Positions 1,934 through 62,922 of a stretch of 64,000 nucleotides of DNA are shown here, piece after piece. Origin of the DNA: Bugula neritina (lineage: Eukaryota; Animalia; Bryozoa); contig OZ037767.1 of the NCBI GenBank assembly GCA_964035545.1, forward strand, positions 15,566,998 through 15,630,997, read 5' to 3'. The stretch's first letter is position 1; each line of letters opens with the position of its first letter. The notes below the pieces were generated by a model. That model saw nothing but the letters and a program-made list of their open reading frames with translations. It made no database searches and had not been told where the DNA came from. A program made the translations under genes and the position numbers.

Positions 1934-2463
1934 CTAAAGAAATGTTAAACATGTAAAATAAAATTTCATGCATGTAAACGTGTCATTCAGCTTGTAAATG
2001 GGCAGCTATAGTTAGAATATTATGACTTCAATTGATTGATTATTATAGATAAACAGTAACATGTTACATACAATTAAACTTTTATTTCTATAGTTTAAAT
2101 ATTTATATATTCTATTTTTCAAATTCAAGAAATTTACAATTGCTTATAGTATTTATGAAGGATTATTAATTTCACTCTTTCGCATCACCTATGATATGCA
2201 GCATTCGAATTAAACTGGCAGTGCTGAATTACATATAGTTATTAGAATTTTGTTAAAATAAGGAAATAGCAACTGTGTTCAATGTGCTTATAGGTAACAA
2301 TTGATTCATCATGTGTTATCTGTGATAAAGCATAGTAAGTAATTTCCTGCCTTTATCCAATTATGGTTTATATTCATTAAAAACAATATTTTAGTTTGCT
2401 ACTTAAATCATGAAGGAAAACACCTTAGAGTAAAATAGTCTGTTTAAAAATAAGTAATTCTAC

Positions 2464-3049
2464 CTGGAACTTGACTTGTTGCATCATCTCTTTGTTCTGT
2501 AGAGGCGGTTCTCTGGAGTCCAAATATTTCATTATTTACACCAACATCTATAGGTATTCTTTCTGCATGGTTTGATATATTGAAATGTTTTAGCTGCTGC
2601 TCTGCTGTCAGCTGACTCTGCAGAAATGTGAGAATATCTGTTTGGTTAGTCTTAGCTGCTTCCTGTATCACTGTATTACCATTTCTATTCTGTATCTTGA
2701 GTAGCTCTACCTTCTGTTCTACTAATACACCATCTAGTAGACATTTGATGATGTCAGTATGACCTCTTTCTGCTGCAATGTGTATTGCTGTCTCATCCTT
2801 CCAGTTCCGTATCTTGAGTAACTCTACTTTCTGTTCTACTGATACACCATCTAGTAGACATTTGATGATGTCAGTATGTCCTCCGAATGCTGCACTGTGT
2901 ATAGCTGTCTCTTTAAGGAAATTATGAGTCTGTATCTTGAGTAGGTCTACCTTCTGTTCTACTGATACACCATCTAGCAGACATTTGATGGTGTCAGTAT
3001 ACCCTTCCTCAGCTGCCCATTGTATTGCATCACACTCCTCACATAATAG
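2464..3049 (-). CDS. Ankyrin-repeat exon, 3' part (about four 39-41-aa ankyrin repeats), interrupted by the LTR element
   Basis: Reads ..DAIQWAAEEGYTDTIKCLLDG..TAIHSAAFGGHTDIIKCLLDG..TAIHIAAERGHTDIIKCLLDG..TVIQEAAKTNQTDILTFL. Repeats are ~117-bp tandem units at DNA level; donor CAG|GT at 2464/2463. Confidence 0.85.
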
Positions 3050-4159
3050 TGTAGTAATTTGTGCAATTACTGAGCGTGAGTTATTTACTTGCGTATAGTT
3101 AGCTGGTTATTCTGCTAGCAATTACTAGGGTAGCTGTCGAGTAATTATATTTATTATCCAAGATAAAGCCTAAAACAAACATCACAGGATAGTTAAGGGC
3201 AACCTTTTAGCTGCAACTGCCTTGCTGAGGTTTGCATTGTAATCATATAAGAATTCAGTACCAGTAAAATAAAATCTCACCTAATTGTGCTAGAGTCAAA
3301 ATTCAAAAACTATGTTGTAGATCTTCTTTTTCCCCAGTGTAAATTTTTGGAAATTTCAATTTTCATTTTTTTTGCAAAGTTATAGACAAAAAACTGCCCA
3401 ATTTTGGCCAATTTTGCCAGAAAAGCTGACTTTTCAGTACCAGTAAAATATCTCAGCAGCAAAACATGATATCTGAATAAAAATTGCATTGCTGGAATCC
3501 TAAGATATTTCTCCAGTGCAACTTTTTTTTTTTTTCCAATAACTCTGCTAGATTGCTCACAAATTGGTGATTTATACACTGAAAATGTCATATTTTTTCA
3601 TAAGAAACTAGCAGCACGCAGCACTTCACGCTTCAATGAGCACGTAGGGATGAGAAGATATTGGCGCGTACATAATAATTACAGGCTTGCTAGCTGGCAG
3701 GCTATAATGAATAGCTTGCTTGGTGCTGTGTTTATGTAGCACCAATAATGGAATGTTGATAGATGACGCAGCCCTAATGAAGGTTGCTGCTTATTGGTTG
3801 TAGTTTAATCTTAGGCTAAACAATTGCAAGTAGGCAACACGCATGCCACCCGCAGAGCAATATTATTCAAGAACCTGAACTACATTTTGAGAGAAATTTA
3901 TGATATTCTTGCTGAGGATGCCCTTAACTATCCTGTGATCACATCAAATTATCCTATACATCAGTCAACTACTAACACATGTTACTACTTCAAGCCTCCG
4001 CTTACAACAACGTGATATAATGTTAATAACCCGGGAAGTGTCACGTGAATCGGAAGCATATCTTCCGGAGCTGCTAATTGGTTGCTACATAAGGGTCTAA
4101 GTATTCCAAGAGTAGAGAGAGGGCGATTCCCGTATTTGTACTTTGCACTACTCACTACA
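3050..4159 (-). repeat. 3' LTR (353 bp plus a 755-bp nested DNA element and 2-bp TSD)
   Basis: 3050-3182 and 3940-4159 match the 5' LTR; 1110-755-2 = 353 bp. Confidence 0.95.
3183..3937. mobile_element. Non-autonomous CACTA/EnSpm-like (CMC) DNA element nested in the 3' LTR
   Basis: 19-bp TIR CACAGGATAGTTAAGGGCA / TGCCCTTAACTATCCTGTG; 2-bp TSD AT; absent from the 5' LTR; no credible coding sequence. Confidence 0.85.
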
Positions 4160-4175
4160 CCGCCCCCCCCCCAGC
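4160..4175 (-). promoter_or_regulatory. Polypurine tract next to the 3' LTR
   Basis: A G-run on the minus strand (plus: ccgccccccccccagc) directly abuts the 3' LTR. Confidence 0.75.
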
Positions 4176-4457
4176 AGAAAGCCCTACTTTCTGATAACAC
4201 AATAAAAAAAAAACACATAATGAAAAACTATACAATAATCCAAAAAGAAAAACATACATAAGTAAACCCACAAAGAGTAAGAAGAGAAATAGTTGAGCAC
4301 GACAACATTTACATTAGAAGACAACAGGGTGATCGATCACACACATCTAGTCAGCTATTAAGAGAGAGGGTGCTTACCAGCACGCGGGCCAATGTCGGAG
4401 CACTCGTCACTTTCTAAACGAGTTACAGCTCAACGAAGGTGCCTACCCCAGGCATTC

Positions 4458-5153
4458 TCATTGGATGGACTCTGATTCTTGTAGGGATCGTGCTCTGTGT
4501 CGAGCCTGTCGGGCACGTAGCCGCCTCTTCAGTCGCCCCACTGAGTCCTTCAACTGGTATAGACCTGTCGTCGTATCCAGCAGGTCAGGGGCTTGTAGTC
4601 TTACAAGCCGCTCTTCTACATTAGCCAGCTGGCTAGGCCTTGGTGGGGTTGTAGTAGTCTCCGTTAGAGGGGGTATTGTTGTCTCTTCTCCTTCTGGGAT
4701 GTTGCTAGGGTTGACGGGGGTAGGAGGCGGGCCCTGAACCATAGGGGACTTATGGCGGGCGGATAACAGCAGTACGTGGAACCCTGACGCTAGTGCGGCC
4801 AGGGTGATAGCCTTCCTGATGACTGGCTTGATGGCATCCAGGTATAGGGGGAAACTGTCTTCATCAACAGTGTGGTTCTCTCCGGCGAAGCAGCTCAGCT
4901 TATGTACTGTCACGAGATACGGGTAGACGTCGTGGAACCCGCAGGGACAGAAGTGGAGTAGGAAATGGGCGTCTACATGTAAACGCAGGGAGCGGTGTGA
5001 CGGGCACTCCTCAAAGCAGACCTGGCAGGTTCGGTGTGGTCCACTGGGTCCTCAGGCTTCTTCAATTCTCCTTTCCGTCGTGGGTGACACCCAACGGTGT
5101 CGTCGACGGAGCACCACGGGTATGCCATTCTCCATTACAGGCTCTTCTTCCAT
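4458..5153 (-). CDS. Accessory ORF3 of the LTR element: C2H2-type zinc finger(s), Pro/Thr linker and basic coiled-coil tail; one in-frame TGA
   Basis: ATG at 5153 is in frame with listed ORF 4458-4913. Contains CQVC-x12-HVDAH (4965-5027), then CPC-x12-HKLSC, and tail LKDSVGRLKRRLRARQARHRAR. Single TGA at 5052-5054. Confidence 0.7.
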
Positions 5154-5520
5154 AGGCAGAGAGGTTGGCTGGTCCCGTGACCGGGAGGTGGTCACTCGAG
5201 TGTGATCTGAAAGAGTAGCAGTGTTAAAGATTATACACTGAGGTACCGTCAGCGTGTACAGCCTGACCGGTACTCTGTTCAGTTACACTCGTGAGATTCA
5301 GGCTAATGAATAGTTGATGGAGAACACACTCGCTATGACAGATTATTTAAAATCAAAGTCGACGTGTATTCCCACCACTGTTTATCATTATCAAATTTCC
5401 AGCTCGCTAGCTAGTGTAGCTAAAGCTGACTGATGCAGTCTAGTTATCGTACCAAAAACATAATTAACTCACCCTTCGATCCAGAATAGTAAGACATTTT
5501 GGAATGAGAGCGGTAAATGA

Positions 5521-7779
5521 TTACTGTTTACTGGCACGTCTACTCTCGACTGCATCGACATAGGAAAAGACCGGACAGCGTGGTTGTGAAACGTGACTAG
5601 GGCTTTTCACTTCCAGCGGATGAATCTCGTGTGAGATTCCGCCGAGGCAAAAGTTGAGATTTTCGTGGTGATCACAACTCCCACGGCTCTTTGCCTGTTT
5701 TCCCATGCGAGGCCTCTCTAGACTTTCGTTACTGCCGCTTATATCGCGGTAACGTACACAGTCTCTGAGACACGCTGGAAGTTGCCTAGTGTGTGGTCCT
5801 GGTCCTACGTTGGTATCTCCTTGCGGAGCCCCTCTCACGGGGGGTTTTTGCACTTCTGGACCTGTTTCTGGCTCCGGAAGTGGTGATGATGGCAGGCTTG
5901 ACGTTGGGGGCGGTGGGCGCACTTTCAAGGACGGAAGTGGCCTTTCTCGCCTCGCCAAGTCTTCCTGACGTGTCATGGAGGTGTTTCCGGCCAGGTTGAC
6001 AGTCTCCGCCTGCCGAGACCTTCTCGCACAATGCGTCTGCCGCCCCGCTTCACCAGGGAGACGGCTATGCTTGTTGGTCTGGCAGACTTTGCACCGTCTC
6101 ACTCTGCGTCGGATATCCCGTTCCATGTTGGGCCAGTACCACCGGAGTTGTAGCTTGGTGACCACCCCTTGGACTCCTCCGTGAGTCTCCTCGTGGGTGT
6201 CTTGTATCAACTTCCGGCGGATGGCAACTGGGCAGACAACCCTCTTCCTGGCTGGCTGTCTGCTGTTGGCGGCCAAGGTCATGGTCAGCAGATCATCTGG
6301 CCCGACCCGCAGAGAGCTCCAACGTTGACAGTACAGCCGTAACTCGGCGCATCCCTGTCGCCGTTGTGTACTACTGGGTCGTCGCCCTTCCTGTTTCGCT
6401 CGGTACACGTCGGCTACCACCCCAGGAAGGCATTCCTGGAGCTTCGGCAGCTCCCTAACGTTACCAGCCCATACAGGTTTGGCGCGGAGGCTCTGGACAG
6501 CCTCCGGGGGCGTGTCAGCCCTCTGTTGGAGTAGCTGAGCAGGGGCGGTCCTCGCCGCCCGTGGTACCTCACGGCAGCCTGCTCCATTTAGGCGGGCTCC
6601 GTGGTCTGTGTGGCGGAACGCCTCACTGTACCCATGTGACAACCTAGCCATAGCCTGGCGCTTCCCGTTGCCTGTGCAGCCACGCGTCCCTGGAGGAGGG
6701 GAGGCGTGGGTTGGGACGGTCCTCCGCCCTCGAGACGGGCTCTGCTGAGGACCTTCCGTCGTAGCTCCCGACGACGGCCCAATGGCTTCCTCCTGGACAG
6801 GATGGAAGCGACCCAGCATGGATCTGGGTGGTAGGTCTACTGTCTCTGAGAAGGGGTTGACACACTGCACTGATATCTCTCCTTGTCCCGTAAGCCGGCT
6901 AAAGCTATGGGCAAGTTGGACTCTCGAGTGCGTACTTTCGACAACTCCCAACTTAGAGGTTTGGCCACCGTCTACCTTGCAGCGGACGGTAGCCCGGGAG
7001 TGGCCTGGTATAGTACAGCTCCGTACTACCTGCACTGCTCCCGCTAGAGGACGACCAAACTTATCGACACAAGCGAGCTCCTTGTCGCCCATGATCATCG
7101 CAGATTTACTGAAATCGATGCGACAACCGTGTCGTTGTAAGAATGACATCCCGAGGATAGCATCCTCGTTGAGCTGCCCGACGATAAACGTCTCTTGGAT
7201 GGCCTGGTTACGGACGTAACCAGTTAGCTCAATAATGCCGTAGAAGGGAATGCACGACCCGTCTGCCAGGGTGCCATGATCCCCCTCATACGGTGCCAAC
7301 CCGTCCTTGACTTTAGCGCTGAGGGTGTCAAAGAACTGACGGCTAAGGAGGTTGGTGGTGCAGCCTGAGTCCAAAAGGAAGTTGGCAAGCTTGCCGGCTA
7401 GCTTTCCTGGTAGGAAGTAGCTACTTCCGTGTGGCTGCAATTGTGTGTGCCGTGGTTGCACCTCCCTCGCTGTGGGTCGAGGGGTCCACGGTTGGCGGCG
7501 ACTATTGACCAGCTGCCGAGGTTGGGGCGGTACGCCTTGCGGCGCCTGTACCATTTCCCTCGCAGGCTCTGTGGTCAACCGTCTGCCGGCTCCGTGTTGG
7601 TGCTGGAGTGGCGTAGAGGACCCAGGCGGCGAGTGGCTTGAGCCTACTTGCCGCGGGGGTCGCCACTTCACAGCATCTCCGCGCGGCGCCCAGCGGGGCG
7701 ACAGACGCGCGGGCCTCCCTGGGTGATTTACAGACGGCCCGCATGAGGTGGGAACATCTGCGGGCCGTGGTAGTTTAAC
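5521..7779 (-). CDS. pol: Internally deleted but open pol frame: aspartic protease plus integrase H2C2 finger; no RT, RNase H or integrase catalytic core
   Basis: LLDSGCTTNLL (DSG at 7363-7371) and ILGMSFLQ; H-x3-H..C-x2-C (THEETH..CKVC, 6082-6195); no YxDD or DDE core; lies in the -1 frame relative to gag. Confidence 0.85.
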   Translation of the reverse strand, partial: VKLPRPADVPTSCGPSVNHPGRPARLSPRWAPRGDAVKWRPPRQVGSSHSPPGSSTPLQHQHGAGRRLTTEPAREMVQAPQGVPPQPRQLVNSRRQPWTPRPTAREVQPRHTQLQPHGSSYFLPGKLAGKLANFLLDSGCTTNLLSRQFFDTLSAKVKDGLAPYEGDHGTLADGSCIPFYGIIELTGYVRNQAIQETFIVGQLNEDAILGMSFLQRHGCRIDFSKSAMIMGDKELACVDKFGRPLAGAVQVVRSCTIPGHSRATVRCKVDGGQTSKLGVVESTHSRVQLAHSFSRLTGQGEISVQCVNPFSETVDLPPRSMLGRFHPVQEEAIGPSSGATTEGPQQSPSRGRRTVPTHASPPPGTRGCTGNGKRQAMARLSHGYSEAFRHTDHGARLNGAGCREVPRAARTAPAQLLQQRADTPPEAVQSLRAKPVWAGNVRELPKLQECLPGVVADVYRAKQEGRRPSSTQRRQGCAELRLYCQRWSSLRVGPDDLLTMTLAANSRQPARKRVVCPVAIRRKLIQDTHEETHGGVQGVVTKLQLRWYWPNMERDIRRRVRRCKVCQTNKHSRLPGEAGRQTHCARRSRQAETVNLAGNTSMTRQEDLARRERPLPSLKVRPPPPTSSLPSSPLPEPETGPEVQKPPVRGAPQGDTNVGPGPHTRQLPACLRDCVRYRDISGSNESLERPRMGKQAKSRGSCDHHENLNFCLGGISHEIHPLEVKSPSHVSQPRCPVFSYVDAVESRRASKQ

Positions 7780-8678
7780 CCTTGTTGGAGTTGAGGGCAG
7801 TTCTTCTGGAAATGTCCTGGCCTTCCGCATCCCCAGCAGAAGTTATGCCCCATGCCTGGTGATTGTACCTGCGGCCCGCAAGGCTCACGGGCGGTATCTA
7901 CCTGGCTTGGGGGAGCTAATGTGGCGACCAGTTTATCTAGCATGTCAGTCATCTGCGCGACTTTTGATGCTAGTGACATCTGGTTCACATTAGCCACCGC
8001 GGAGGGTTCCGCGTTTGGTTCTGTATGAGCAGTAGTGTGCTCCGTGGCCACCTGGCGGGAGGCCACGCGGTTGCGGTGCATATGAGTCGCCATGAGGTAG
8101 GCTTCTCCCACCGCCAGTGCATCTTCGACCGTGGTGACTCCCCTCGCTTGGAATTGATGGTGGAGCCCCAAGTCGTTGATGGACTGCACGAAGGCATCAT
8201 AAGTATACTTCTCACGGTGTACTGGAGGCAGATCGCGGAACGCGATCTGCGCTAGTGGGTACACCGTGGCAGCGTGCTCTTCTAGCGACGTGTGAGGATC
8301 ACGCCGCATCCTTTGTAGACGGGCCCGCGCATCTATGGGAGAGATGCCAAAACGGGCCCGCAGAGAAGCAAAGATTCCGTCTATGTTAGGTCCCGCTCCG
8401 TACGGCTTAGCTTTGCCCGTCAGCGCCATCCTGAGCTTTAGCAACGCCACCCTTGGTGGCCACTCTGCAATCTCCATCACATCTTGGAATTCTTGGATAA
8501 ACTGCTCCACTGCTTCTTCGCCGGTGAAGGTGGGCGCCTTCAGCTGGTATCTGTCTTCACCATGCTCTCTAAGAATTCTCACTTCTTCATCTAACACCAC
8601 TGGTTCCACAGGTATATCAACATTATCTCTCTCACCTTCATTCAGTGGAATGGGTAGCTCCGTGCCGTCTTCTGCCAT
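7728..8678 (-). CDS. gag: Gag with CCHC zinc knuckle
   Basis: ATG at 8678; PTFTGEEAVEQFIQEF..WPPRVALLKLRMALTGKAK capsid-like region; CWGCGRPGHFQKNC knuckle. Confidence 0.92.
   Translation of the reverse strand: MAEDGTELPIPLNEGERDNVDIPVEPVVLDEEVRILREHGEDRYQLKAPTFTGEEAVEQFIQEFQDVMEIAEWPPRVALLKLRMALTGKAKPYGAGPNIDGIFASLRARFGISPIDARARLQRMRRDPHTSLEEHAATVYPLAQIAFRDLPPVHREKYTYDAFVQSINDLGLHHQFQARGVTTVEDALAVGEAYLMATHMHRNRVASRQVATEHTTAHTEPNAEPSAVANVNQMSLASKVAQMTDMLDKLVATLAPPSQVDTAREPCGPQVQSPGMGHNFCWGCGRPGHFQKNCPQLQQGLNYHGPQMFPPHAGRL
7773..7779 (-). promoter_or_regulatory. Candidate -1 ribosomal frameshift heptamer G_UUA_AAC
   Basis: gag reads TTA AAC and the -1 frame GTT AAA CTA is the pol frame; the same heptamer is at 55202-55208 in the second element. 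Confidence 0.65.
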
Positions 8679-8694
8679 GACTGCTATACGCAAG

Positions 8695-8712
8695 ATCCCA
8701 CCGCTGCCACCA
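8695..8712 (-). promoter_or_regulatory. Primer-binding site complementary to the tRNA-Leu 3' end
   Basis: Minus strand TGGTGGCAGCGGTGGGAT, 1 nt inside the 5' LTR; plus strand ATCCCACCGCTGCCACCA matches the conserved eukaryotic tRNA-Leu 3' end with CCA. Confidence 0.9.
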
Positions 8713-8713
8713 C

Positions 8714-9066
8714 TGTAGTAATTTGTGCAATTACTGAGCGTGAGTTATTTACTTGCGTATAGTTAGCTGGTTATTCTGCTAGCAATTACTAGGGTAGCTG
8801 TCGAGTAATTATATTTATTATCCACAATAAAGCATAAAACAAACATCACATCAAATTATCCTATACATCAGTCAACTACTAACACATGTTACTACTTCAA
8901 GCCTCCGCTTACAACAACATGATATAATGTTAATAACCCGGGAAGTGTCACGTGAATCGGAAGCATATTTTCCGGAGCTGCTAATTGGTTGCTACATAAG
9001 GGTCTAAGTATTCCAAGAGTAGAGAGAGGGCGATTCCCGTATTTGTACTTTGCACTACTCACTACA
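8714..9066 (-). repeat. 5' LTR (353 bp)
   Basis: TG..CA termini; direct repeat of 3050-4159 after removing the nested insertion, with about 5 substitutions counted by eye. Confidence 0.95.
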
Positions 9067-9199
9067 ATAGTCTATATCTCTCTTCTAATGATATGAAAGG
9101 AAGGCACTTCTTCAGCTCAGACAGAATATTTCCCTCTTCATCTCCACCTCTAATACTAATGAGTATTTGAGTGAACTTTAGCACTTCATTCTGATTCAT
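9067..9199 (-). CDS. Ankyrin-repeat gene, 5' part of first coding exon (ATG at 9199)
   Basis: MNQNEVLKFTQILISIRGGDEEGNILSELKKCLPFISLEERYRL continues in frame into LCEECDAIQWAA once the LTR element and one ATAG copy are removed. Confidence 0.75.
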
Positions 9200-9810
9200 T
9201 TTAACTGACCTTTTAGTTTTAGTAAGAACTCTCCATCTTTATAAGCAGCTCTTCAAATAGACTAATATGCTAGACTAGAAAACTCCACGATACACAATGA
9301 CAATGTCTATCCTCAGACTATATATAATATTAATACTAAATTATAACTTTTTTTTCATTTTAAGCTCTAAACTTTCACACGTGTATAACAGTAGTCATTA
9401 ACTTTCTGTAAATTACTAACCAGAATCTTCTCAATATGGCGTGCCTACTTGTGTAGCGCTTATCTATCAACTATAACTATAACTAGCCTGTACAATAAGC
9501 AGTTCTGTAGTACAGGGAATTCACGACGAAATAGATGGGAAATTCCATTCACTCTCGTTACTCATTTTAAATCGGCCTGTCAACAAACAATTGCATTAGG
9601 TAACGACGAGTCAAAATGGAGAATACTCATAGAAACTATTATAATTAATGGAATAAGACAACACAACTCATATTACTCAGCCTGTTGCATTCTGTAAATA
9701 ATATGGCCTGACGCATCTGATGTTGTACTAACTACCAGGCAGTGGTTGTAGACAGTCATGCTATACAAAATTATAACATGCTTACATAAGCTGTTCATAA
9801 TATAAAACTT

Positions 9811-12264: not shown

Positions 12265-15200
12265 CTAAACGAGCACATAGCAAGTAGAACTTGAAGAATG
12301 TTCTAGCACAACTGAAACCTCATTATGAATATAACATTTAGCTGTAGAGGTTATTGAAAATGCTGCACAATCTTCATATTGCACACTGCAAGCGTAGGCA
12401 CATGATTCTATTGAGAGCTGTTTGAAAACCCCAACGCAGATTTACTGCTACACATGCGATCAGATGATGCTGAGAATCTTTTATGCTTTGGATGACTCAT
12501 GTAGTAAAAAGTTTGAGAAGTTTTGCTGTAGACAATGAAATTATTCTCAGATGATGTGGCGGATATGAGGTCAAGGTCAGTGTTCAGACCAGTCACCACA
12601 ACATCTACTAATCCAACATGGCCGCTACTCACTTTAAATCTCTTCAGTTTTCCTTTGTTTACAAACAGCTGTTGCCCATCCACAACAACAGGTGTGCAAT
12701 TGTTGCTGCACTCAAAGCTGACAGTGTTGGTGTTTTTGTGAACTAGAGATTTAGCTTCGCATGTTTTAATTTCACCTGTAAGTGAAACAACTCCAAATGA
12801 TTGAACTGTTGGATAATGAAAGTTGTCGGAAAAACTAGTTACAAAACCAAACTGAAGACCGTAGTAGCCATGTATAAGAAAATATGAGGGAGAGATGCTT
12901 AAAATAACGGAGTAAACATTATTGTTTTTCACACAATTTATGATTAGTCGTGTGACGTCTGCAAAGTATAAAATTGCCATGTGAGTTGGTGAATCAAGTC
13001 TAATATCAGAGATTCGAGAGTATGTTTGATATGCAATGAGGGTACCTGCTTCACCGCATTGACCAATCATAGCATAGTTTACATTTAGTAGGTCATCAAG
13101 ATTTGCTGCTTTTATACAGTGCTCTGATTGGTCGGCTACAAAAATAAATTGTTTCTTGTGAGATTCTAAAAGGCTGAGTTTTGACAGGTTGACAAGAATA
13201 ATATGACTAATTGAGGTGAATGTGTAGGAATTTTGCAGATAAGCACAACCTTGTAGCTGCACACCAGCTACTACTGTACAGTCTCCATGATGATTGATTT
13301 CCACAAGTTGTTTTGATGTAGCTGCTATTATTTTAGTAGAATCAGTTGGATGTTCAATAAAGGATATGATGTTATGGTTAGTAATTTTATTGACCTCAAT
13401 GTGACTAGTGGCCTGGTAAGGAGTGCTAATTGGACCATCTGCCGAATCAATTATTAACCTTTGACCTACAAATAGGTACACAGGTGGATTTTATATATCT
13501 GTAAAAACTGCTTATGCGGAAAGGCTTTTTAAACGGACTAAAGATTTGCTTTTTATATTAGGGCACAAGGGCAATTATGGCTAACATTACCAATACAGCA
13601 TTATAACAGAAAATTACTGTTTAACCCATATATAATATGGTAAAACATCCATTCAACAATGTTAGCATTTTATGAAACTTTTCATGTAAAAACCAAATTA
13701 AAGAATTTTATTCAGTAATTCTCCGTAAGTTTTGTTAGTTTGCTGAAACTTCATCTTTTTGAATACCTTTATAATACTTTAAACAGACATTACACATGAT
13801 TTGAATATTGATTAGCGCTACATGAATTAGCTTAGGACTTGTTTGACAAAGATTAAATTTAATATTTAAATTATAATTATGTGTCAAATATTGTACTATG
13901 ATATGTTCAAATTTGTTTTATTATTCTAAAACTTGTTTGACTTCATGCAAGTCCAACATTTTGGCCTCTAATGTAAACGAACAATATTTATCATATCTAC
14001 AAAGCACTTAATGCAATAATTTCATTCTTATCAGCAAAATTGCATTTTCCGAACATGAGAACAGGTGTTTATTTGATTTTTAAAAAACTATAACAATAAA
14101 CATTTCCTTAATATCATATTTGCAATATAGAATATTTAATTTAAATTGCGGTACCTTATATGAACTGCGGTAAGCATTATATGAATTTAGTTTTATTTAT
14201 ACCTCAACTGATCCTATATTATAACCTACAATAGGCCTATAGTACGCTGGTCCTATATATATTACTTATAGTCCTAATTTTACTAGTCCTAGATAATATA
14301 ATAAACTGGGCCTATGTAATACTATAAGTCCTATAGTGTTGGTGCTACAATAGCCTATTGGTCTTATAATAAGCTGGTCCCATAGTACTGGTTCTATTAA
14401 ACTGGCCCCCTAACATTGGTCCTATCACTCACAATATATCTATAAAAATACATTATTTACATATTATATATAGCTGAATAATCAGTATATCATAGTTTAT
14501 TATATATAGAAACAATAACAATTAATTTGAAGGACAACTGTTTATAAACCAATCACATTACCTGGGAAAGTCTTGTAAATACTTTTCCTCCATGTTCCAC
14601 CACACATTTGACTACTGTTCCCTCTGCATGCTCTACGACACTCAGTTTCCCCTGCTTCACCATGTTTGTTGTATTCAACACCACAGTAACACTGGTCAGT
14701 AGATTGTACTCCTGCATATGGCTGCCCTGGAATTAGTAAATTACTAATCGATCTTTATAAATATAACAACACGATAAATCACAAAACACAAATTTTTTAT
14801 AGTTCAGCTACAATTGGCAGATTCAAACTTAAATGCCTTTGTTGTGTTGAAATGGAAGAATACTGAAATCGATGAAAATTAAAAATAAACGTTTTCAAAG
14901 AATCAACATCATTATCAGGTATACTGCAGTTACTTTTTTAAAAATTATAAAAAGATTTACCTTGTATACTGCAGTAGCCAATACAAAGCTCTACGGTCAT
15001 CAAACGAGTTGAAAATGCTATGGGTAACGCTCTGTTCCTAGAGTCCTTGTAACAACCAATCAGCTGGTTGACAGTGTACACCAGATTCCAACACAGCCAG
15101 AGTTGCAGCAGCACTTAAATTATACAACTAAATTAGTCAATTATTTATAAAAAAAAGTTTGAACTAACAGATGCAAGTATTTAAAAAAATAAAATTTAGA

Positions 15201-37779: not shown

Positions 37780-38915
37780 GTTCTGTTATGGTTCAGTGTA
37801 CAACCTATCAGTGTAATACATCTGAATCTGAACTCTATTCTCCACAATGAGTAGCAACAGCACATTTGGTGAGTGACTATGCATACAATACTTGTATTTT
37901 TATAATTCATTAGGCAACATTAAAGAGAATATTCTATCTTCAAATTTTGGAAATAAATTATATCTGTGAATAATTAAAAACATTTTCATCATTATAGTTA
38001 GAAAATCTTTTTAATGTTTTTCTATTTTTAGAATGTAACTATTAATAAATTTTATGTAACTTTAGTTTAGCTTGCAGAGCCTTTAAAACTTATTCTAATC
38101 TGATTCTAATCTACAAACTAGTTATACTGCAAATTGTTTGTATAATATCACAGTTATAACTCTTTCAGTACAACAATTGATTGTTTAAATTAAAAATACT
38201 TGCTTAGTACTAAATTGCAGTGCAATACAATAGTGTATTACATAGTTGAGTACAAAACAGGATGTATAAAATGCATTACACTATATTTCAATTTCAGACA
38301 TTAAAAAACTCCCTTCAAAAAAGCGATACACAATAATATGGAGGAATTTTAACATTCCTCCACCTGCACACATAGCAAGACGATATGCTGAGATAATCCA
38401 ACCAGAACCATACTATGATTATAATGAGTAAGTACTGCTTTACTGCTCAGTCTTTTTGTTGTAACCAGAACTTTTAGTCAAGCTGCTCTCTGATTACCAG
38501 ATAAACTTTCTCCATATAATTATTTATAGTCTAGATCTGTCAGGTTTGTGTTTGCAAGGTTTAAATTAACAATAAAGGCATATATTTAGATATAGAAGTA
38601 TTCCATGCATTCAGTAGTTCTATTAGATGATGGTGTAATTCTAAACTTTGACTGACAGAAGAGAAACTGTTATGAGTCTTCATAATAATATCTGAATAAC
38701 TATTATTTTATTATACTTTAGAAAGATGACAAGTAACCTCCAAGATGGTGGACTACATACATATTATGTAATAAACTCTGATACTCAGGTGAAAAGAGAG
38801 AGCTGAATCTGCCACATGCTGATGAACTGAATTACTCAGTTTTCTGTATTTTATTAACTGATCTAAACAAGTTTCCTCAAGTGTAAAGTTAGCTGAAATG
38901 TCAAACCAGCATGTC
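37780..38915 (+). repeat. Direct segmental duplication of 62856-64000
   Basis: Collinear high similarity through exons and introns, starting exactly at the TIR end. Confidence 0.92.
37847..38806 (+). CDS. Three-exon gene for an unrecognised 78-aa protein, copy 1
   Basis: Exons 37847-37868, 38298-38427, 38722-38806 (GT-AG, in frame): MSSNSTFDIKKLPSKKRYTIIWRNFNIPPPAHIARRYAEIIQPEPYYDYNEKMTSNLQDGGLHTYYVINSDTQVKRES*. AATAAA at 39011. Confidence 0.75.
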
Positions 38916-39647
38916 ACCATGATATTTCTATTTATATAACTATATAATTATATGATATTGTATATAAATATATAATGTACTATATTTTACTTGATTGTAT
39001 TATTTGAACTAATAAAACTTTTTATTATCTTGTATATACCAGGCGGGCTGAAGTAGGAATGTGATTTGAATATATGTGCTTACAAATATATATTTTATTT
39101 CATCTAATATTAGATTGTAATCTTTGTTGCCTGCCAAACAAGCAACTTACAGAAAATTTGAGTGAAAAAATAAAAAGAGCTAAGACTCTATTTCTGTAGT
39201 AGATATTTTAATGACTGCTGCTTTCAAACATATGTAGTAACTGCTTTGAATTCAGCAGCCATCAGTCTGTATATCTGGTGTTAACGAAGAATATTTTTAA
39301 TTTGCATGTATTATTATTTTAACACACCTAGCTAAGACTTTCTCTACATTTAAACATGAAATTATAATTGCAGAATCAACACATGCCAATAGTAATTATA
39401 ACCTCCTGTAATATTCATTATTTTAAATTTTGCTTGCCCAAATAATTATAACGAAATTCTTAGGCCGATAAATTTTTACTGGCTTTATTCAGCTTTAACA
39501 GTACAAAAACCATATTTTGTCACTTGTGCTGCCTGTTTCTCTCCTAATAAACAAAAGTTTTGATTATTTTGGCATGGGCATGTTTCTTCAATGTTAAAGG
39601 TCTTTTAGGTAAAAGAAATTTAAGAGTTCAACAGTTTAATTTGTTTA

Positions 39648-45200: not shown

Positions 45201-48200
45201 TTGCAGTAGTCATACATCACATGTTACTCAGTGCAGAGGAACCTGTCAATACAGATGACTCACTCATCCTTCTGCAACTGTCAATCACTCAAACAGAAAG
45301 GTTGGCTGTGTGAGTGATTGACAGGTGTCAGGAGGAGGAGACTAGTCACATTATCTACTAACTTTCTGCTGTGTATTATGAAGTGTCACGTGACTGAGTC
45401 ATTGTATTCTTAGTGGGTGATTAGTCACTTTCATTTCAAGTGTAGAGTTTGGGAGGTGCAGATGTGGTTACACTGTGTTACTATTTATTAGATAGAAAAG
45501 ATTAGAAAGAGAGCTACAAACCTGAGGCTAGAAATATATGGATATTTGAAGATCTGCACACAGATAGTGGATAATTATAGAATTGAGCTGGCCTTGAGTA
45601 AGACAATGGGCAGACAGTCTCTGCTGGACACAGTACAACATGCAGTTGATAAGTTCAATGATGCAGGGATTGTGAGAGACTACAAAGAGATGAGTGGGAA
45701 GATGGAAAAGGCTACAGATATTGGTGTAATAGAGAAGTGTTTACTTCCAGACAGCATCTTGGTACCAACATGTAGGTGGAGTCTATAAATAGTAACACTA
45801 ACTATAAATAACTTTCTGCTTGTAATCAGTTAAATTGCTTTCATTGAATATTTTAATAGGAGAATAAAGAGAAACCTCTGATAATTAGAAAAGTAGATAG
45901 AGTTTATTTATTAGATAATTAAGTTTTGTTCTACTCTCACATTATGAGACATTTCTGCAGTGTTTCAGAGTTTATGATGTATAAGTGAGCTGCTAAACTG
46001 TGTTATGCTGACTACCTGCTGTCAGTATTAACAAAATATTCTCACTTAGACCTGTGCATCACGCAGCAACTTGTAGTATAACTACAGACTGCTTGTATTT
46101 AAAATATCTTTTTATTTTAGGTTTGAAAAGCTGTTCCCCTTCTCCTCAGCTGATGAGATGCTCAAGTTATAGTATTGTTATTTTGTTGTTGCAGACAGTG
46201 AAGACAGTCTGGGACTGAAGCTGCTGCAGCCACCATCTTCTCTACAGTCTGATGGACTTCCTGTACGTGGAGCGTGTTACACAGTAAACATCTCAGCTGA
46301 TGGACATCTTATGTGTGAGACACCAGTACGTGTAGAAGTAATAAATAGAGACACTCTAGATACTATCAGCTCAGTGAAGGACACCGACACTACAAAGTGG
46401 TGGGAGATAATCCAACCTGAAGGGGTGATGGTTGGCAGCTTCTATAACAGAAAGCAGAAAACAGCTGAAGTCTCACTCCTTGATCCGAACTCCTTTGAAA
46501 AGTCTCGCTCTGTCTACAAGCAGTCAGTAGATGGACTCTTCACTCACTATAGAATAGCTCAGCACTTCTCACTGCTCTATACTGTAGACAGTGAAAAGAA
46601 ACAGCTGGTAGTCTGTGATCTAGTTGACAATAATATACAGAAGTTTCCTCTTCTTAAGATGGAGTACCCTTGGCCTGTATGCATCCTCCCAGACTCAACT
46701 CTCCTCATAGGAGACTTCGCTGTAGATGGTAACGTGAGAAGATATAAAGCGGAGAACACAACTCTCACTCTAATGTGGGAGTTTCCTCACACCTCAGAAC
46801 CAACTGGTATTTCCTTTGATCCAACATCTGAACTGATTCACATCTGTACAGAGAGAGGACCTCTCCTCATCCTCTCACTTGAAGGTAAATATTGTGTTTA
46901 TTATAGTAAGTTTAGTTATTTTATATATAATTATGTTGCAGTAAATAATATATTTTAATAATTAACAGTAAACAAATTCTACTCATAAGATATAATATTG
47001 TTAGTATTTATCATGTCACTGATGTTAATTTTAGCTAAAAGTTATGTAATAAAGACTGTAACATGCTGATAGTAGATGTTACATTCTTCATCACATGACT
47101 TATAGCTAATAATAATATTAGTGAATAATACTGCCTCCCTACAATAAGTTTATTTCCAGCTGCAGTAACATGCAGGATGTAAGCACAGGTAAAAGTGTAT
47201 ATTATATTGTATAGGTTTAAGGTGTATTCTGTGTAGTGTGCAGTGAGCTCTTAGTAAACTTTCCATTCAGTCTTCCTTTCCAAGGGTTCACCTGGTAGTG
47301 TAGAGGATAGGGACTCCACACTGCCAAGTGCTGCAAGGGGTTCAAACCCACCCATCAGCATGTCTATAGTTGGTATACTATGGAAGTGTTTTACAGTAGT
47401 TTTAGAGGTGCTTAGTCTAATAATTGTACAGACTGCCAGCTACACATGAGTTATGAGTTGTAGTTTGGCTTCAGTCTAGTGCTGCCATTGTGTTGGTCAT
47501 CAGATAATTTAAAGATAAATAATTCAATACTTTTTGACCCGCCATTACTGAGACTATTGTAATTTGATGATGGCTGGTTGAGCAGTGTTTGCTGGTGGGA
47601 CTTAAGTGGCTGTGGTTGGTTCTTGTCAAATATTTAATATGTGATAATGTTGGAGTAGCTGCAGTAGTATTAGAAATAGACATGTGGGTGTGTTCTTGCT
47701 AAAAGCCACAGGCTAAGTTTGTGGGTCAAGGTCAATACAGTAGTATAATGAGACACTATTTTCTACTCTGTTTGAATATTTACTTCACAGAGAGAAATAT
47801 TAGTGTTAGAGTGAACATTAGCTGACAACTAAAACAGCTCGTTTTTTGGATCCCTAAATTGACCAGCAGTGAATAGAAATTAGTGTCAGGTACTGTTCAC
47901 AGTGAATAGTATGTTAGATCAATGTTGATATAAAGAGTTGTGAAGTTGATTCTTAGTATTTATCACAATGAGCCAAGTTATGTTCAATGGTGATCTTATA
48001 TATGTTCAATGGTGAGCTTAAATATTTTCGATGGTGATCTTATTTATGCTCAATAGTAATATTATATATGTTTAATAGTGATCTTATTTATGCTCAATAG
48101 TGATATTATATATGTTCAATGGTGAGCTTATTTATGCTCAATAGTGATATTATATATGTTTAATGATGATCTTATTTCTGTTCAATGATGATCTTAGATA

Positions 48201-51200
48201 TGCTCAATGCTGAACTAAGTTATATTCAAAGCTGAACTTATAAATGTTCCATGCTGCTCTAATGTTTGTTGGAAATAAGCTTCTGCAAAAATTATTACTG
48301 ATCACTCTGAACTAACTTGTCATAACTTCTAACCAGTAGGAGAGTATAGTAATGTGGATTTTATTGTATATGATAGTTGAATATAAGAAATGCAACAAAA
48401 AATAACTTCTAAAGATTAAAATAAGAAAAAAAAAAACATGAAAATAAGCATTTGCAGAATTTTTCTACAACTGTAAATTCAGTTAACTTTTCTCAATATT
48501 AGCAGAACCTGCTAAGACCATAGTGTGTCATTACATTCTTGCTCTGTAGTGTAGTGATAACCAAGCAGTTGTGGTGTGTAATGGTTAGCACACCTGTGTG
48601 CAAGTCCGAGGTCTGTGATAGTAACCCAAGTACGGGAGGGGGGGAAGGGGAAGTTTTATAACTAATTCTAGCGGTTAGTAAAGTGTGGTAGAACTCCGAG
48701 AAGAGTTGAGTGGTCAGGGAAGCTTGAAGGAGTAGTATAAAAAAGGCAGCTGAGTTCTTGAAAAGTGGGTAAGGTGTAGTGTCGAGAGCACCCAGTGACG
48801 ATTGTAATGTAGTGGTGAGTGCGTCTGCTTGCAGGCTGAAGGTCTCAGCATGACTCAAAGTTTTGTAGTGGTCAAATTCTTTTTTGTGCTCCTATTCAGC
48901 ATCTTTGAGTGTATGTTTTTAAAAAATGTTATGGGATCTACAACAAAAGATAAAATTTGGGTAATATTTAAACTGTATTAACATGAACAGTAAACATTTG
49001 GTTAAGATATACAATCACAAGCAGCTTATAAATCAAGTTCAACTCCGAAGAAGTTGAAGTCTAAGGCCAAAACTAATAGTATCAATGATGATAGCTATGA
49101 ATCTTTCAGCATATTTTCAGCACCACCGTACCAATCGTTTGATTCTGAATAACCATACAGGCTTTGGCAAACTTATGATCATTATGTTTCGTAGTGGGTT
49201 AGTTTGGGTTAGTTTGAGCTTATCAAAATTTAGTAACAATTTTGGCCATCATTTTATTTTATTTCTTTCTTAATTACAAATGCAAGAGCTGTTGGGCATA
49301 ATTAGTTTAGTTAATAGAAGCTTCTCTGCATTAAAATTATCTCAAAATGTCAGTGAACCACAATTTAAGCTGGAGTCAGCATTTTATATGGACCCCTCAT
49401 ATCGAGATAACAGATATTGATAAGTTTCAGTATGTCTATAAATTGAAAAACAAATAAAGTACTACCAAGAAAAATATTGCTACTTAAACATGTTTTTATA
49501 TTTAATTGTGCTGTGCAAAGATAAATAAAAGAATAAACTGGTAGCACGGAAGTTAATAAAAAAATTTGCCAACTCACCATTAATATTGGCATTTTGGTAC
49601 TTAGCTATAAAACAAGAAGCTAGCTTGGCAGCTGCTTAAGGCTAATAACTACTTGTAGGCTGCTAAACTGCATTATTAACAATATGAATACTTCTACAAT
49701 GGGGGGGGGGGGGAATTGAAATTAATGAATTTAGCACAAATTGCTAGAAGGTGAAGTGGAAATAAAACGCTACATTTTTTGAAAATATATTGTTACAGGA
49801 AAACTTGTATCAAATTGATATAGGGATAGAGTAGTTTAGGAAATATAAGTTAATGTGGTCTCTTAAAAGTTATAGTTGCACAAATTCAATTATCTGTCTA
49901 CAGCAATAGTCATACTGTCATTGTGATTGTGATATAAATTCAAAATGACAACGTTAAGCAAATGATTGAGCTTACCTTTTGCTGCAATGACAACTTCAGT
50001 TCCTAACTCTGAAAGAAAGTGATCATCTTCTATCTCTGAGAGGTAGCTGCAATCTTTACCCATGTGATGAAATGATTCAATGTTTTCCCTGTTGTGGGGT
50101 TGTTTGGAAGCACAAATTCACTGAATCTCAAAGCACAACCTCCTAGTCTGAGCCTCTGGTGTTCACTATGCCGGCAAAATATTTCTTCTGTCAATAGCTG
50201 CGAATGAAAACTATGTGCTGTTATGTAATAACCTTTGCTTTGCTCTGTCACTGCTTGGTAAGCCAGTTTCTTGCCTTTGAATTACAATTTAAATATTTCC
50301 TTATTATAGCTCTGTTATGCAACATCTTCTTTTGTTCCACCGGGTAGTTTACACAAGTTTACACAAGGCTTTTGAAGTGGTTCACCTGATCCAGCATTGA
50401 CTATTCAGTAGCTTGTTTCATTGTTAATTTTAAGCTTCTTGTTTGAAACACATTTGCTGATAACTGAGTACATTGGAGTTTAATGGTGCATCTCCCTGAT
50501 CTCTCTTTTACACACATTTTAAATTAGTTGGCTTTCCTTTCCATGAATGAAATTGACTAGTGAAGCCTAAACTACCCATGCAAGAGATATGTGCAGTTAA
50601 AATTCAATTTAAGTCTTTGATAAACGGAGTGGGGCAATGTTTAATAGTAGTCTGAAAATTTGAAAATGTCTTGGCTTCAAAAACATTTCGAAATCATAAA
50701 CAGCTAGTAGGTTGAAGGAGTTTCATTCCACTTATATGCTCCCCAGTTAGGTTGTATTTTTTGTTTTGGTACTAAGTATTATATACCTATATACCCTTAT
50801 ATAACTTTCATATCAATTGCTAAACATAAAATAACCAACAATATGATATATTTGCAATAATATTTAAATTTTTCCAAATTTGTGTTGAAAAAAAGCATTA
50901 AATGCATTAATAATAACATTTTTTCAAAAAACAAAAAATATAGAAAATGCAAAATTAATAGGTTTATGCAGAGCAAAGAAATTTATTTGTGTGCCAATTA
51001 TAAAAAGCAATTGACTCAAATTTATTTAAATACACATATATTTCAATAGTATTCAAATAAATTGCAAGTAAAATGTATAAATAGCATCTAACTTGGAAGC
51101 ACCAATTGAAATGACCCAAATGTAGGGTTCAACTCTATCCTAGCTTCCTATAAAGGTTTGTGATCATCATTAGTGCACATGTGAACGAATAATGTTGTTA

Positions 51201-53725: not shown

Positions 53726-55203
53726 GTATTTCATGAAAATTACATTATACTGAAAGCTTTAACAACAATCACAATAATAGGGCATTAGAAAGCTAGCCCA
53801 ACTTAGCTACAATTACAGCATTCAAAATATACGCAACAGTAATTATAATACTGACACACGCAGTTACAGTAGAGGATGAGAATCTATCACAATATAATTA
53901 ATAAAATATATAAACGAATCTGAGTTGGAATTAATTTAAAGAGGCCCAGGTTAGTTTTGTTTTTCAGTATCTGTCATAATTTACAGCTTTCGTTAGGTAT
54001 GTTTGATTTATTCCAACTATAATAACATGTTTATAGGAGTTTAACATTTTTTGGAATGCTAGTGCAGTCAGCTTGATAAAATCCATGGCTATATCTGTTC
54101 ACTTTATAATATAGGTTTCTCATAAAATTCTATTCCGACTTGTTTGTTGTAGAGTTACATTATAACTTTGGGGAGCAATCAGAAAAGCTACAGAGATTTT
54201 TTCGCAACATCATATATTAAAATTCTAAAGAATAAAGTTAGTTTAGGATAACCTAAAAAAGTGCCATCTTCTAGTACATCTGTGGCTGGAAAATAGGTTT
54301 GGTCTTCCCCCACAACAAAGTGTGTTAGCTACAGCCATTGATGTTAATAAGTCATATTATAGATGCTTTGCAATTTAATTTATTGGCTTTCTATCTTATT
54401 GATAGTTGAATGTTCCAGAAAATGTTATCTACAGCACAAGCAAGCTCACGCCCGGCCAACATTACCGCCAAGTTATTAAAGTCAATGTGGCACTTGTGTC
54501 GCTGCGGGAATGACATTCCCAAGATGGTATCCTGCTGAAGCTGACTGGCGATGAAGGTCTCGCTGATCACCTGATCACGGATTCTACCAGTCAGCTTTAT
54601 CACTACACGAACCCGTCCGCCAACGTGCCGTGTTCCCCTTCATATGGCTCCAGGTTCGCCCTATTTCCGGCATTGAGTGTGTCGAAAAGACACCGGCTCA
54701 GAAGATTTGTGGTGCACCCAGTATCCAGCAGCTAGAAAGTTGCAGCTTTGCCGGCAAGTTTACCGAGCAGGAAATAACTGCTTCCATTTAGCTGAGCGCT
54801 CACTGAGCGGTTCATCTCCAGAGGTGACACCTTATGTGCATGAAGTCAGGGATGCACCTGCGCTTTCCGGTTGCGTGGGCAACCGATTGACATCTCGGCC
54901 TTGCTCGCACGCAAACGGCCGAGTGAAAGCATAGTCCTGCTCACGTGTGAGCAGCCGAAAGAAATCTCGGTCTTGCTCCAACTCTTCATACGCCCCCTCA
55001 TCAGGCAACTCTTCAAAGCGGTTTTTGAGTGGCCAAGTGGAGGTTTTGGCAAACCTTGCGGTCTGCTAACTCTCCGTGGGATTTGCCACTCTGACGAAAG
55101 CGGCCTCATCACTCGATTGAGCTTGAGCCTTGGCCGTGGTCTTGATCTCAGAGGGTTAAACCGAGGCCCACGGTTGGCGGAGTCTACCGTGGGCCATTGT
55201 CGT

Positions 55204-55977
55204 TTAACTGTTTCCTCCCACCGTGGGGCAGCTCTTCAAGAGGTGCCCGCCACTACCACAACCCCAACACAAAGGGATTTGCCTGCCGACGGCAGTTGTC
55301 GGCGACCTAGCTGGTCGCTCAACTGCCGACTGTCGGCGGAGATGCCTGATTTCGGCCAGCAGCTTTTGAACCAGGCTCGTCGTTAAGCCTGTTGACTCGT
55401 CGGCTGCCGCCGTGGCCACTTGTACAGCCGACATAGCCGACGACGGCAACATGCTGTCGTTGGCTTCTACTTGCTGTACAGTCGCCCCAGGCCGGCACGT
55501 ATTGTCAGCCTGGAAATATGCATTCCTAAGCCGAAGAGCCCTCTTCATCATCTTAACTTCGGCTACCACCAAATGCCTTTTCAAGCCCATGTTGTTGATA
55601 GACTGAAGGAAGGCATCTAGTGCCAAACTCTGTCGACCTTCTGCAGGCAAGTCGCCATAAGCAACTTGTGCCAGCCGTTCTACCACGGTCGCGTGTTCTC
55701 TCAAGGAAGTATTCGGATCTCTCCTAAGCCCTTGGAGTTGCACTTGCGCATCTCTAGCGGTGAGCCCAAACCGGGCTCTCAACGCATTGAAGATGTCGCC
55801 GACATCCTGACCAATATCATAAGGTTTGGCCGATCCTGTCAGGCACAACCGCAGCTGGATCATAGCAAATCGGGCAGGCCATCGACAGATGGCTGCCACA
55901 TTTCTGAACTCAGCAATAAATTGCTCCACATCTTCTTCTCCTGAGAAGGTGGGAGCCCGCAAATGATACCTGTCCAT
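55204..55977 (-). pseudogene. gag: Gag of the second LTR element (5' end frameshifted)
   Basis: APTFSGEEDVEQFIAEF..LTGSAKPY..CWGCGSGGHLLKSC; upstream ATG at 56060 is out of frame. Confidence 0.85.
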
Positions 55978-56100
55978 AGGCAGCGCTGGGCCGCCTATGA
56001 CATCCTCTATAGCTGCCGGTTCAATCTGCTTCAGACGGAAATGTCTCCTTCGTCGGCCATATTCTTCTACTCCTCAGCCAGAAGCATTGGCTTTAAATTA

Positions 56101-56118
56101 ATCCCACCGCTGCCACCA
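56101..56118 (-). promoter_or_regulatory. tRNA-Leu primer-binding site
   Basis: Same 18-mer as 8695-8712. Confidence 0.88.
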
Positions 56119-57080
56119 CCGTTGTTAATTTGCGCATTCACTAATTACGGGTTATTTAGAGCTAATGCAACGTCGTCAAGATTAGAGTAAGAAAGATTTT
56201 ATTTACATGAAAAATACACAAGTACCTAATTACTACACAAGTAAGAAAAGCATTACATAATTACTGATAGCAGAACATGACTTATCTAATTCACACTACA
56301 ATTCAACTGCGCTCATCCAAGCGCGCTGTCCATCAACTCTAATTAACCAGCCTCCTGTATGTCATAAGCTGCTGTCCATTGTATGAGACTTAGTGGGTGC
56401 AGTACCAGGCTAGATATTCATCCCTCTAGAATGCTTGGAATACTAGAGAGATACACTTGGAGTTGCCCGTTCGATATATACACAAAAGATAAAACTCCTA
56501 CAATATTATTTTAAAACTCAATTTTGTTTTAACCGCTAGATAAAACAGTAGATGAAACGTACAGGGTGTGTGTTTTGACTAGTTATACTCTAAAATTACA
56601 GCGAATTAAACTTCTCATGGAATTGCATGTTTCTCCTATAACCTGATAAATCTATTAAACTTGTTTTGAAATATTTGAAAGTTTGCTTATTTGTTGGGAT
56701 ATTGAGAAACAGAGATGGGTTTATAATCTACTAACAGACAAAGTGCAGAATGCTACTAGTGATCTGGTGTTGAGAGTGTTGATGATTATAGCATATTAAC
56801 ATATGTATGTAGCAGCAAGGTACATTTGGCTACGCCAGGAATATCAGCTAACTGTTATTACTTCTAGTTCATGAAAAACTCCAAGTAATTTGTAGTAAAT
56901 TATTCATTTGATTTCATAGTTGCCTTATTGTATTAGTGTGTATGGATAAATGACACTTTATTTAGTTGTATTATTTGAACTAATGAGTCTTTCATCCATC
57001 TTTTACCCGACAATTGTTATGTATATTCGATTTTCTTATGATAAAGAGATTTTCGGCGGAGTATTTTAAGACAGTTTATA

Positions 57081-62806: not shown

Positions 62807-62875
62807 ACCAATCAAATTCAAGCACATCCGGTTGTGACTATAAATACAGCAGTGTGTTCTGTTAAGGTTCAGTGT
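62807..62875 (+). promoter_or_regulatory. Core promoter of the 78-aa gene copy 2 (CCAAT, TATA, Inr)
   Basis: CCAAT at ~62808; TATAAATA at 62839-62846; TCAGT at 62869-62873, about 30 nt downstream; ATG at 62923. Confidence 0.65.
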
Positions 62876-62922
62876 ACAACTTATCTGTGTAATACATCTG
62901 AATCTGAACTCTAATCTCCACA

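What the first reader, a model, noticed from the sequence alone, without database searches (positions are those of the whole stretch)
5521..8678. Recently mobile LTR element with a minimised Gag-PR-IN(H2C2) polyprotein: two large deletions, both in frame
Seen: the pol frame is open for ~750 codons but jumps from the pre-RT region (..EVPRAARTAPAQ, ~6535) straight into integrase-proximal sequence. It keeps the H2C2 finger, degrades the first catalytic-Asp motif (AETVNLAG) and then skips the integrase core (~5960). The LTRs differ at only ~5 of 353 sites, and TSD, PBS and PPT are intact. Known: non-autonomous elements retaining gag and protease (TR-GAG type) are described in plants. Inference: an animal satellite-like retroelement that builds and matures its own particles but borrows RT/IN in trans; frame preservation across both deletions suggests selection. 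With ORF3 this is the best candidate for an undescribed system in this window.
Basis: partly seen in the sequence, partly recalled or inferred. Interest (0 to 1): 0.8.

Follow-up and report, generated by a model that had tools for sequence, protein, structure and literature searches.

The report
Old RT-less gypsy retrotransposon lineage
This jumping gene has lost its copying and pasting enzymes, the same two losses are shared by a whole diverged family of relatives, and so it likely spreads by borrowing those enzymes from intact kin while keeping its own capsid, protease and a zinc-binding stub of integrase.

Summary
Observation largely confirmed. A Ty3/gypsy element (minus strand, 3050-9066) encodes Gag and a 773-codon pol frame with protease and the integrase H2C2 finger, but no RT, RNase H or integrase core. 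The deletions are not private: 13 of 38 relatives found share the RT-less layout at 52-97% identity. They form one clade (100/97), apart from RT-bearing kin, and both halves of the protein give matching trees. Protease and the integrase N-terminal half stay conserved (HHCC in 7 of 7 rows), whereas the pre-RT stub and the catalytic Asp have drifted. ORF3 is a two-exon zinc-finger/coiled-coil gene with homologues in full-length relatives. Best reading: an old non-autonomous lineage, likely mobilised in trans; no intact helper was found. It is not a TR-GAG. It works like mouse IAP 1Δ1 and sugar-beet families that keep pol remnants, so it is a new variant of a known kind. The open point is why the integrase stub is conserved.

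The parts
9067..9070 (.). target-site duplication ATAG (5' side of the element)
8714..9066 (-). 5' LTR, 353 bp, TG..CA ends, AATAAA at LTR position 248
8695..8712 (-). primer binding site, 1 nt after the LTR; its match to the 3' end of a tRNA-Leu is recalled, not from a call
   Evidence: the same 18-mer follows the LTR of the second element
7728..8678 (-). gag, 316 aa, C-terminal CCHC knuckle
   Evidence: zf-CCHC E 0.001; 41% identical to the gag of the second element
7773..7779 (-). likely -1 frameshift heptamer GTTAAAC in the gag/pol overlap
   Evidence: same heptamer in the second element; V-K-L-x-R-P recurs in relatives; slippery-site role recalled
5521..7842 (-). shortened pol frame, 773 codons: protease, post-protease domain, drifted pre-RT stub, integrase N-terminal half, C-terminal tail
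7132..7425 (-). aspartic protease, LLDSG motif with Asp at 7371-7369
6534..6535 (-). junction 1: RT and RNase H gone; this copy and P0007 lack about 30 further codons in frame compared with the rest of the family
6064..6432 (-). integrase N-terminal half with H2C2 finger (6231-6064)
   Evidence: PFV integrase residues 44-111 match at E 1e-6
5964..5967 (-). junction 2: integrase core and SH3 gone
   Evidence: bridged by X1 contig 5917-6055 with 0 differences and X6 contig 5803-6147
5473..5497 (-). ORF3 exon 1 (25 nt, ATG 24 nt after the pol stop)
5207..5472 (-). 266-nt GT..AG intron of ORF3 (donor GG|GTGAGT, acceptor CTCTTTCAG|)
   Evidence: one X1 contig skips exactly this stretch
4458..5206 (-). 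ORF3 exon 2: zinc-finger pair and C-terminal coiled coil; broken in this copy by a stop at 5054-5052
4160..4172 (-). polypurine tract
3938..4159 (-). 3' LTR, first 222 bp
3183..3937 (.). 755-bp non-coding TIR element (CACAGG..CCTGTG, 25-bp inverted repeats, 2-bp AT duplication) inserted in the 3' LTR only
3050..3180 (-). 3' LTR, last 131 bp
3046..3049 (.). target-site duplication ATAG (3' side of the element)

Best explanation
This is one decaying copy of an old, single-origin lineage of gypsy-type LTR retrotransposons that lacks RT, RNase H and the integrase core, keeps Gag, protease and a conserved integrase N-terminal half in one open frame, and likely moves by borrowing RT and integrase from intact relatives. 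Shown: both deletions, their sharing across a clade, and stronger conservation of protease and the integrase N-terminal half than of the dead stubs. Inferred: Gag and a -1 frameshift Gag-protease-integrase-stub precursor would assemble and mature particles, and helper Pol would be co-packaged and use the kept PBS, PPT and LTR ends. Least certain (about even odds): the kept HHCC half likely acts as a protein, holding the precursor in register for protease activation or joining mixed integrase multimers with the helper. ORF3 is likely an inherited accessory zinc-finger gene made from a spliced RNA.
For: Shared layout: of 38 relatives, 13 are RT-less at junction 1, 14 run on into RT and 11 end before the junction; one search adds RT-less P0045. 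One origin: the 12 RT-less rows of 25 form one side of a branch at 100/97; 16 of 42 rows at 100/98, including one long-branch row of unknown layout; the integrase-half tree has the same branching, 97/95. Constraint: mean pairwise identity among RT-less rows is protease 0.81, integrase-proximal 0.75 and H2C2 0.68, against pre-RT stub 0.59 and dead-core remnant 0.54, while RT-bearing kin keep the pre-RT stub at 0.77. Invariant columns are 47 of 120 in the integrase half against 15 of 73 in the stubs, p 0.005; HHCC is kept in 7 of 7 rows, the catalytic Asp in 3 of 7. LLDSG is kept in 7 of 7 rows that cover it. In run X1 one contig bridges junction 2 unchanged at depth 4535, against 400 for a flank contig; both indels listed lie in the intron, none in 1180 nt of pol. 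Neutral simulation: a 338-codon frame stays stop-free in 0.6-1.5% of lineages at the family's divergence. [quoted passage not shown]
Against: No intact close helper: the six long relatives are only 24-52% identical (a weak search for long proteins) and the close RT-bearing proteins are fragments. No DNA loci were obtained, so LTR/PBS sharing with a helper and distinct TSDs for other copies are untested. Protein searches kept only proteins of 425 aa or more, which favours open frames; the simulation and the count of in-frame indels are inflated by this. P0020, sister to the rest, keeps the frame and the stop but lacks H2C2. Six of 11 tails shift or end early. X1 variants are 11 silent to 12 replacement, against 31% silent expected, p 0.064: only a trend. 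The column test treats related rows and linked columns as independent. One X6 contig (90% alike) leaves the window sequence exactly at junction 1 and its next 229 letters were not shown. X1's kind (DNA or RNA) is not on record, so depth is no copy number.
Confidence: 0.72

Rival explanations
1. Same non-autonomous lineage, but the frame is kept for what translation does to the RNA in cis (stability, escape from nonsense-mediated decay, packaging, or coupling to ORF3), and the integrase stub is a passenger.
For: The pol stop sits at the same place, within 3 codons, in 5 of 11 tails, including the sister row P0020 that has lost H2C2. It lies 48 nt before the ORF3 splice donor, near the 50-55-nt boundary for NMD (recalled). 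IAP 1Δ1's fusion protein works in cis (PMC6466679, passage).
Against: Frame-keeping alone would not hold HHCC in 7 of 7 rows, nor keep the integrase half more conserved than the neighbouring stubs.
Confidence: 0.2
2. Non-autonomous family whose whole post-protease frame is a neutral relic; open frames reflect which proteins the searches could return.
For: Only proteins of 425 aa or more were searched. Many rows are frameshifted at private places. The X1 silent-to-replacement ratio is not significant. Two in-frame junctions arise by chance 1 time in 9.
Against: Length selection does not explain the uneven conservation between regions. The X1 contigs, not chosen for ORF length, show no pol indel at 5% share.
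Confidence: 0.07
3. Private decay of one autonomous copy after insertion.
For: The copy is decaying: stop in ORF3, insert in the 3' LTR.
Against: The same junctions stand in relatives down to about 53% identity that form one clade. The stubs have drifted far more than a 1.4% LTR distance allows. X1 and X6 contigs bridge junction 2.
Confidence: 0.01

Closest known systems
Mouse IAP 1Δ1 (review PMC6466679, passages; the primary paper was not held)
   Same: Internal deletion leaving one novel in-frame fusion ORF; non-autonomous; needs helper proteins in trans; spreads as a family; the fusion is reported to act in cis.
   Different: IAP is a class II ERV and 1Δ1 loses part of gag and pol. Here gag and protease are whole, RT and RNase H are wholly gone, the integrase N-terminal half is kept, and the family is far more diverged (down to about 53% amino-acid identity).
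Plant TR-GAG (PMC4350172, abstract and passages)
   Same: LTRs, PBS, PPT and TSD kept; gag kept; RT, RNase H and integrase core absent; signs of mobility.
   Different: TR-GAG is under 4 kb, has one gag ORF and was selected for lacking protease and integrase similarity. This element is 5.26 kb without the insert, has three ORFs, protease and H2C2, and a 4-bp TSD rather than 5.
Sugar-beet non-autonomous families, second group (PMC13570524, passages)
   Same: Families keeping GAG/PROT plus at least one partly decayed pol domain (8 of 15 keep GAG/PROT).
   Different: There the remnants are described as decayed and patchy across members; here the integrase half is open and conserved across a clade, in an animal host.
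HERV-H RTVLH2-like elements (PMC6629862, passages)
   Same: A large subgroup with deletions in pol shared across many loci.
   Different: Retroviral; no conserved fusion ORF is described in the passages seen.
Full-length gypsy relatives P0001-P0005
   Same: Order PR-RT-RH-IN; homologous protease and integrase halves; P0003 and P0005 carry an ORF3-like zinc-finger region.
   Different: They keep RT, RNase H, rve and mostly SH3, and the ORF3-like region is fused to the end of Pol instead of being a separate spliced gene.

Membership tests
Ty3/gypsy LTR retrotransposon | LTRs with TG..CA ends, PBS, PPT, TSD | tested here: met
Ty3/gypsy LTR retrotransposon | pol order PR-RT-RH-IN in the lineage | tested here: met
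   full-length relatives; the kept pieces map in that order
Ty3/gypsy LTR retrotransposon | placement in a named gypsy clade by an RT tree | not tested
   no reference RT set was on hand
non-autonomous LTR retrotransposon family | no RT, RNase H or integrase core | tested here: met
non-autonomous LTR retrotransposon family | deletions shared by several related elements of one origin | tested here: met
non-autonomous LTR retrotransposon family | copies at different sites, each with its own TSD | not testable with these tools
   no genome held; no loci found
non-autonomous LTR retrotransposon family | autonomous partner sharing LTR ends and PBS | tested here: inconclusive
   RT-bearing kin at 54-64% exist as fragments; a second decayed element shares the PBS; no intact helper seen
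TR-GAG | under 4 kb | tested here: not met
   5260 bp without the insert
TR-GAG | single gag ORF, no protease or integrase similarity | tested here: not met
IAP 1Δ1-like (works like; not a member) | in-frame deletion giving a fusion ORF | tested here: met
IAP 1Δ1-like (works like; not a member) | fusion ORF helps mobility in cis | not testable with these tools
   needs bench work

The most novel reading that the evidence does not exclude
A long-lived satellite retroelement of a marine animal that builds and matures its own particles and uses a kept integrase N-terminal zinc domain as a hook that draws the helper's RT and integrase into them, a parasite-of-a-parasite strategy working through a catalytically dead integrase fragment.
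Probability: 0.3. Interest if true: 0.72.

Novelty: new variant of a known kind. Interest (0 to 1): 0.5.

Why it matters
Deleted LTR copies are common and usually dismissed as debris. Here a clade shows that one such layout has persisted and diversified, with selection apparently sorting which parts of Pol a dependent element must keep: protease and the integrase N-terminal half, but not RT, RNase H or the integrase core. If the stub works as a protein, the family is a natural deletion experiment on the non-catalytic roles of gypsy integrase, and on how a non-autonomous element recruits helper enzymes. If only the frame matters, it extends the IAP 1Δ1 cis-translation rule to invertebrate gypsy elements. 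Either can be tested on a genome assembly.

Tried and rejected
No whole genome is held, so copy counts and TSDs could not be scanned. DNA locus scans found nothing: metagenome contigs, 35 and 41 pattern hits with none confirmed; viral contigs, 42 hits with none confirmed. No RNA holder listed. The fold of the pol frame failed (mean pLDDT 27.9) and was not used. The ORF3 relative P0059 folded well (pLDDT 84.7) but had no match at E up to 0.001 in PDB or BFVD; Pfam gave only weak C2H2 hits in 3 of 16 rows and PDB sequence search weak C2H2 fingers. The protein atlas gave no answer for ORF3 relatives. No complex prediction was run, since integrase halves would tend to pass by likeness to solved structures. 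No tRNA gene lies in the window, so the primer identity rests on recall. Earlier findings by sequence and by place were empty. A divergent RT in the ORF was rejected. Summed contig depth was not used as a copy number. Literature searches for an invertebrate RT-less gypsy keeping the integrase finger, or for a spliced C2H2 third ORF, listed no fitting paper; these are exact-word searches of open papers only, and repeat libraries such as Repbase or Dfam were not searchable.

Full report
Anatomy. The element lies on the minus strand from 9066 to 3050. The 5' LTR is 8714-9066 (353 bp). An 18-nt PBS follows after one base, then gag 8678-7728 with a CCHC knuckle, a pol frame open for 773 codons (7842-5521), ORF3, a purine tract at 4160-4172 and the 3' LTR. 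The TSD is ATAG. The two LTRs differ at 5 of 353 sites (K2P 0.014), but only after setting aside a 755-bp TIR element that sits in the 3' LTR alone, 26 nt before the AATAAA. The element interrupts an open ankyrin-repeat frame that reads on across the TSD. Its near matches lie in one unnamed organism and in marine plankton metagenomes; a marine invertebrate host is inferred.

What pol lacks. Pfam finds protease and H2C2 only. All six long relatives carry RVT_1, RNase H and rve, and the window matches the closest one at residues 1-321 and 931-1104 only. Closer RT-bearing fragments place the breaks. P0008 matches P0022 up to residue 414, just before RT, and resumes at residue 433 of P0046, just after RNase H; both sides carry an Arg-Arg pair, which would fit a template switch at a short match (inferred). 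The match to P0046 ends just past the first catalytic Asp motif.

The deletions are a family trait. Of the 38 proteins, 13 jump from the pre-RT stub to the integrase side or carry that junction in a shifted frame, 14 run on into RT, and 11 end too early to tell. P0007 is 97% identical to the window; the others are 52-61%. In a protease-region tree of 42 rows the RT-less rows form one branch (100/98) that also holds one long-branch row of unknown layout. With 25 rows (fragments, unknowns and distant outgroups left out) and the mixture model, the 12 RT-less rows group at 100/97. A separate origin of the window and P0007 beside the nearest RT-bearing row is rejected (p-AU 3e-5; the group was named after seeing the first tree). 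The integrase-half tree repeats the branching, though it holds only one close RT-bearing row. In DNA, an X1 contig crosses junction 2 with no difference and an X6 contig crosses it at about 91%. No listed contig was shown bridging junction 1, although depth does not dip there.

Selection. Among RT-less rows, protease (0.81), the post-protease domain (0.76), the integrase-proximal part (0.75) and H2C2 (0.68) are better kept than the pre-RT stub (0.59) and the dead-core remnant (0.54). RT-bearing kin, although more distant in protease (0.73), keep the pre-RT stub at 0.77. Across 7 rows, 47 of 120 columns are invariant in the integrase half against 15 of 73 in the stubs (p 0.005); HHCC is kept in 7 of 7 and the catalytic Asp in 3 of 7. 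Against this: the searches returned only long proteins, 6 of 11 tails break early, P0020 has lost H2C2 in frame, and the 23 X1 variants are 11 silent and 12 replacement (p 0.064). In one search both indels lie in the intron. In one search, of 12 indels shown (16 more hidden), those in pol cluster at 6368-6372 and look mostly compensating, though one 2-nt insertion in X6 is unexplained.

ORF3. One X1 contig skips 5207-5472, a GT..AG stretch with consensus splice sites, and this puts an ATG 24 nt after the pol stop in frame with ORF3. It is a single contig with 29 letters on the short side, and the run's kind is not on record, so it shows a spliced form, not expression. This copy has a stop at 5054-5052 that the other contigs covering the place lack. 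ORF3 has 65 relatives at E up to 0.001, with conserved Cys/His. A relative folds confidently into a zinc-finger region and a 57-residue helix with no structural match. In full-length P0003 and P0005 a similar region is fused to the end of Pol, so ORF3 is inherited from the autonomous lineage and is not an invention of the RT-less one. A nucleic-acid-binding regulatory role is a guess.

Mechanism. Gag and a likely -1 frameshift precursor would form and mature particles; helper Pol would supply RT, RNase H and integration, using the kept cis signals. [quoted passage not shown] The alternative is that translation to a stop near the ORF3 intron protects or routes the RNA, as reported for IAP 1Δ1. 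No intact helper was found. A decayed, truncated relative with the same PBS and heptamer lies at 54430-56160.

Known kinds. Papers seen: PMC4350172 (abstract, passages), PMC13570524 (passages), PMC6466679 (passages), PMC9144474 (passages), PMC6629862 (passages). The primary IAP 1Δ1 paper was seen only as a reference. No supplements were read; the beet paper's additional tables may list domain layouts like this one. The element fails the TR-GAG definition and works like IAP 1Δ1 and the beet families with pol remnants. Searches listed no invertebrate case with this layout, which is weak evidence of absence. Three earlier notes of this scan describe internally deleted fungal gypsy copies with other layouts; I did not check them.

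Verdict. A real feature: an old RT-less gypsy lineage, a new variant of a known kind, seen here through a damaged copy. Interest 0.5.

Noticed in passing
window 3183-3937: Non-coding TIR element with CAC termini and a 2-bp AT duplication, inserted in the 3' LTR; likeness to CMC/EnSpm-type MITEs is recalled. No second copy in the window.
   Followed up: partly
window 2444-3049 and 9067-9260: Host ankyrin-repeat frame split by the element; it reads in frame across the TSD.
   Followed up: partly
window 54430-56160: Second, decayed gypsy element: same PBS and GTTAAAC heptamer, gag 41% identical, protease broken, cut off after protease.
   Followed up: partly
window 5150-5305: This copy differs from most X1 contigs around the ORF3 acceptor: depth falls to 166-1315 and joints show replaced sequence. 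Possibly a recombined or hypervariable patch.
   Followed up: no
protein P0061: Joins the post-junction-2 pol tail in frame to the middle of ORF3, a further deletion product in this family.
   Followed up: no
protein P0020: Sister to all other RT-less rows, with a slightly different junction 1 and an in-frame loss of H2C2, yet the same pol stop.
   Followed up: partly
window 6534-6849 (run X6, record 28): A 545-letter contig, 90% alike, leaves the window sequence exactly at junction 1; the rest was not shown.
   Followed up: no
window 37780-38919 and 62856-63996: About 1.1-kb repeat 25 kb apart, 87-95% alike.
   Followed up: no
window 47935-48308 and 60995-61302: Two arrays with a 22-bp period.
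   Followed up: no
window 12408-13490 and 46173-46958: Long open frames of 360 and 261 codons, not annotated.
   Followed up: no
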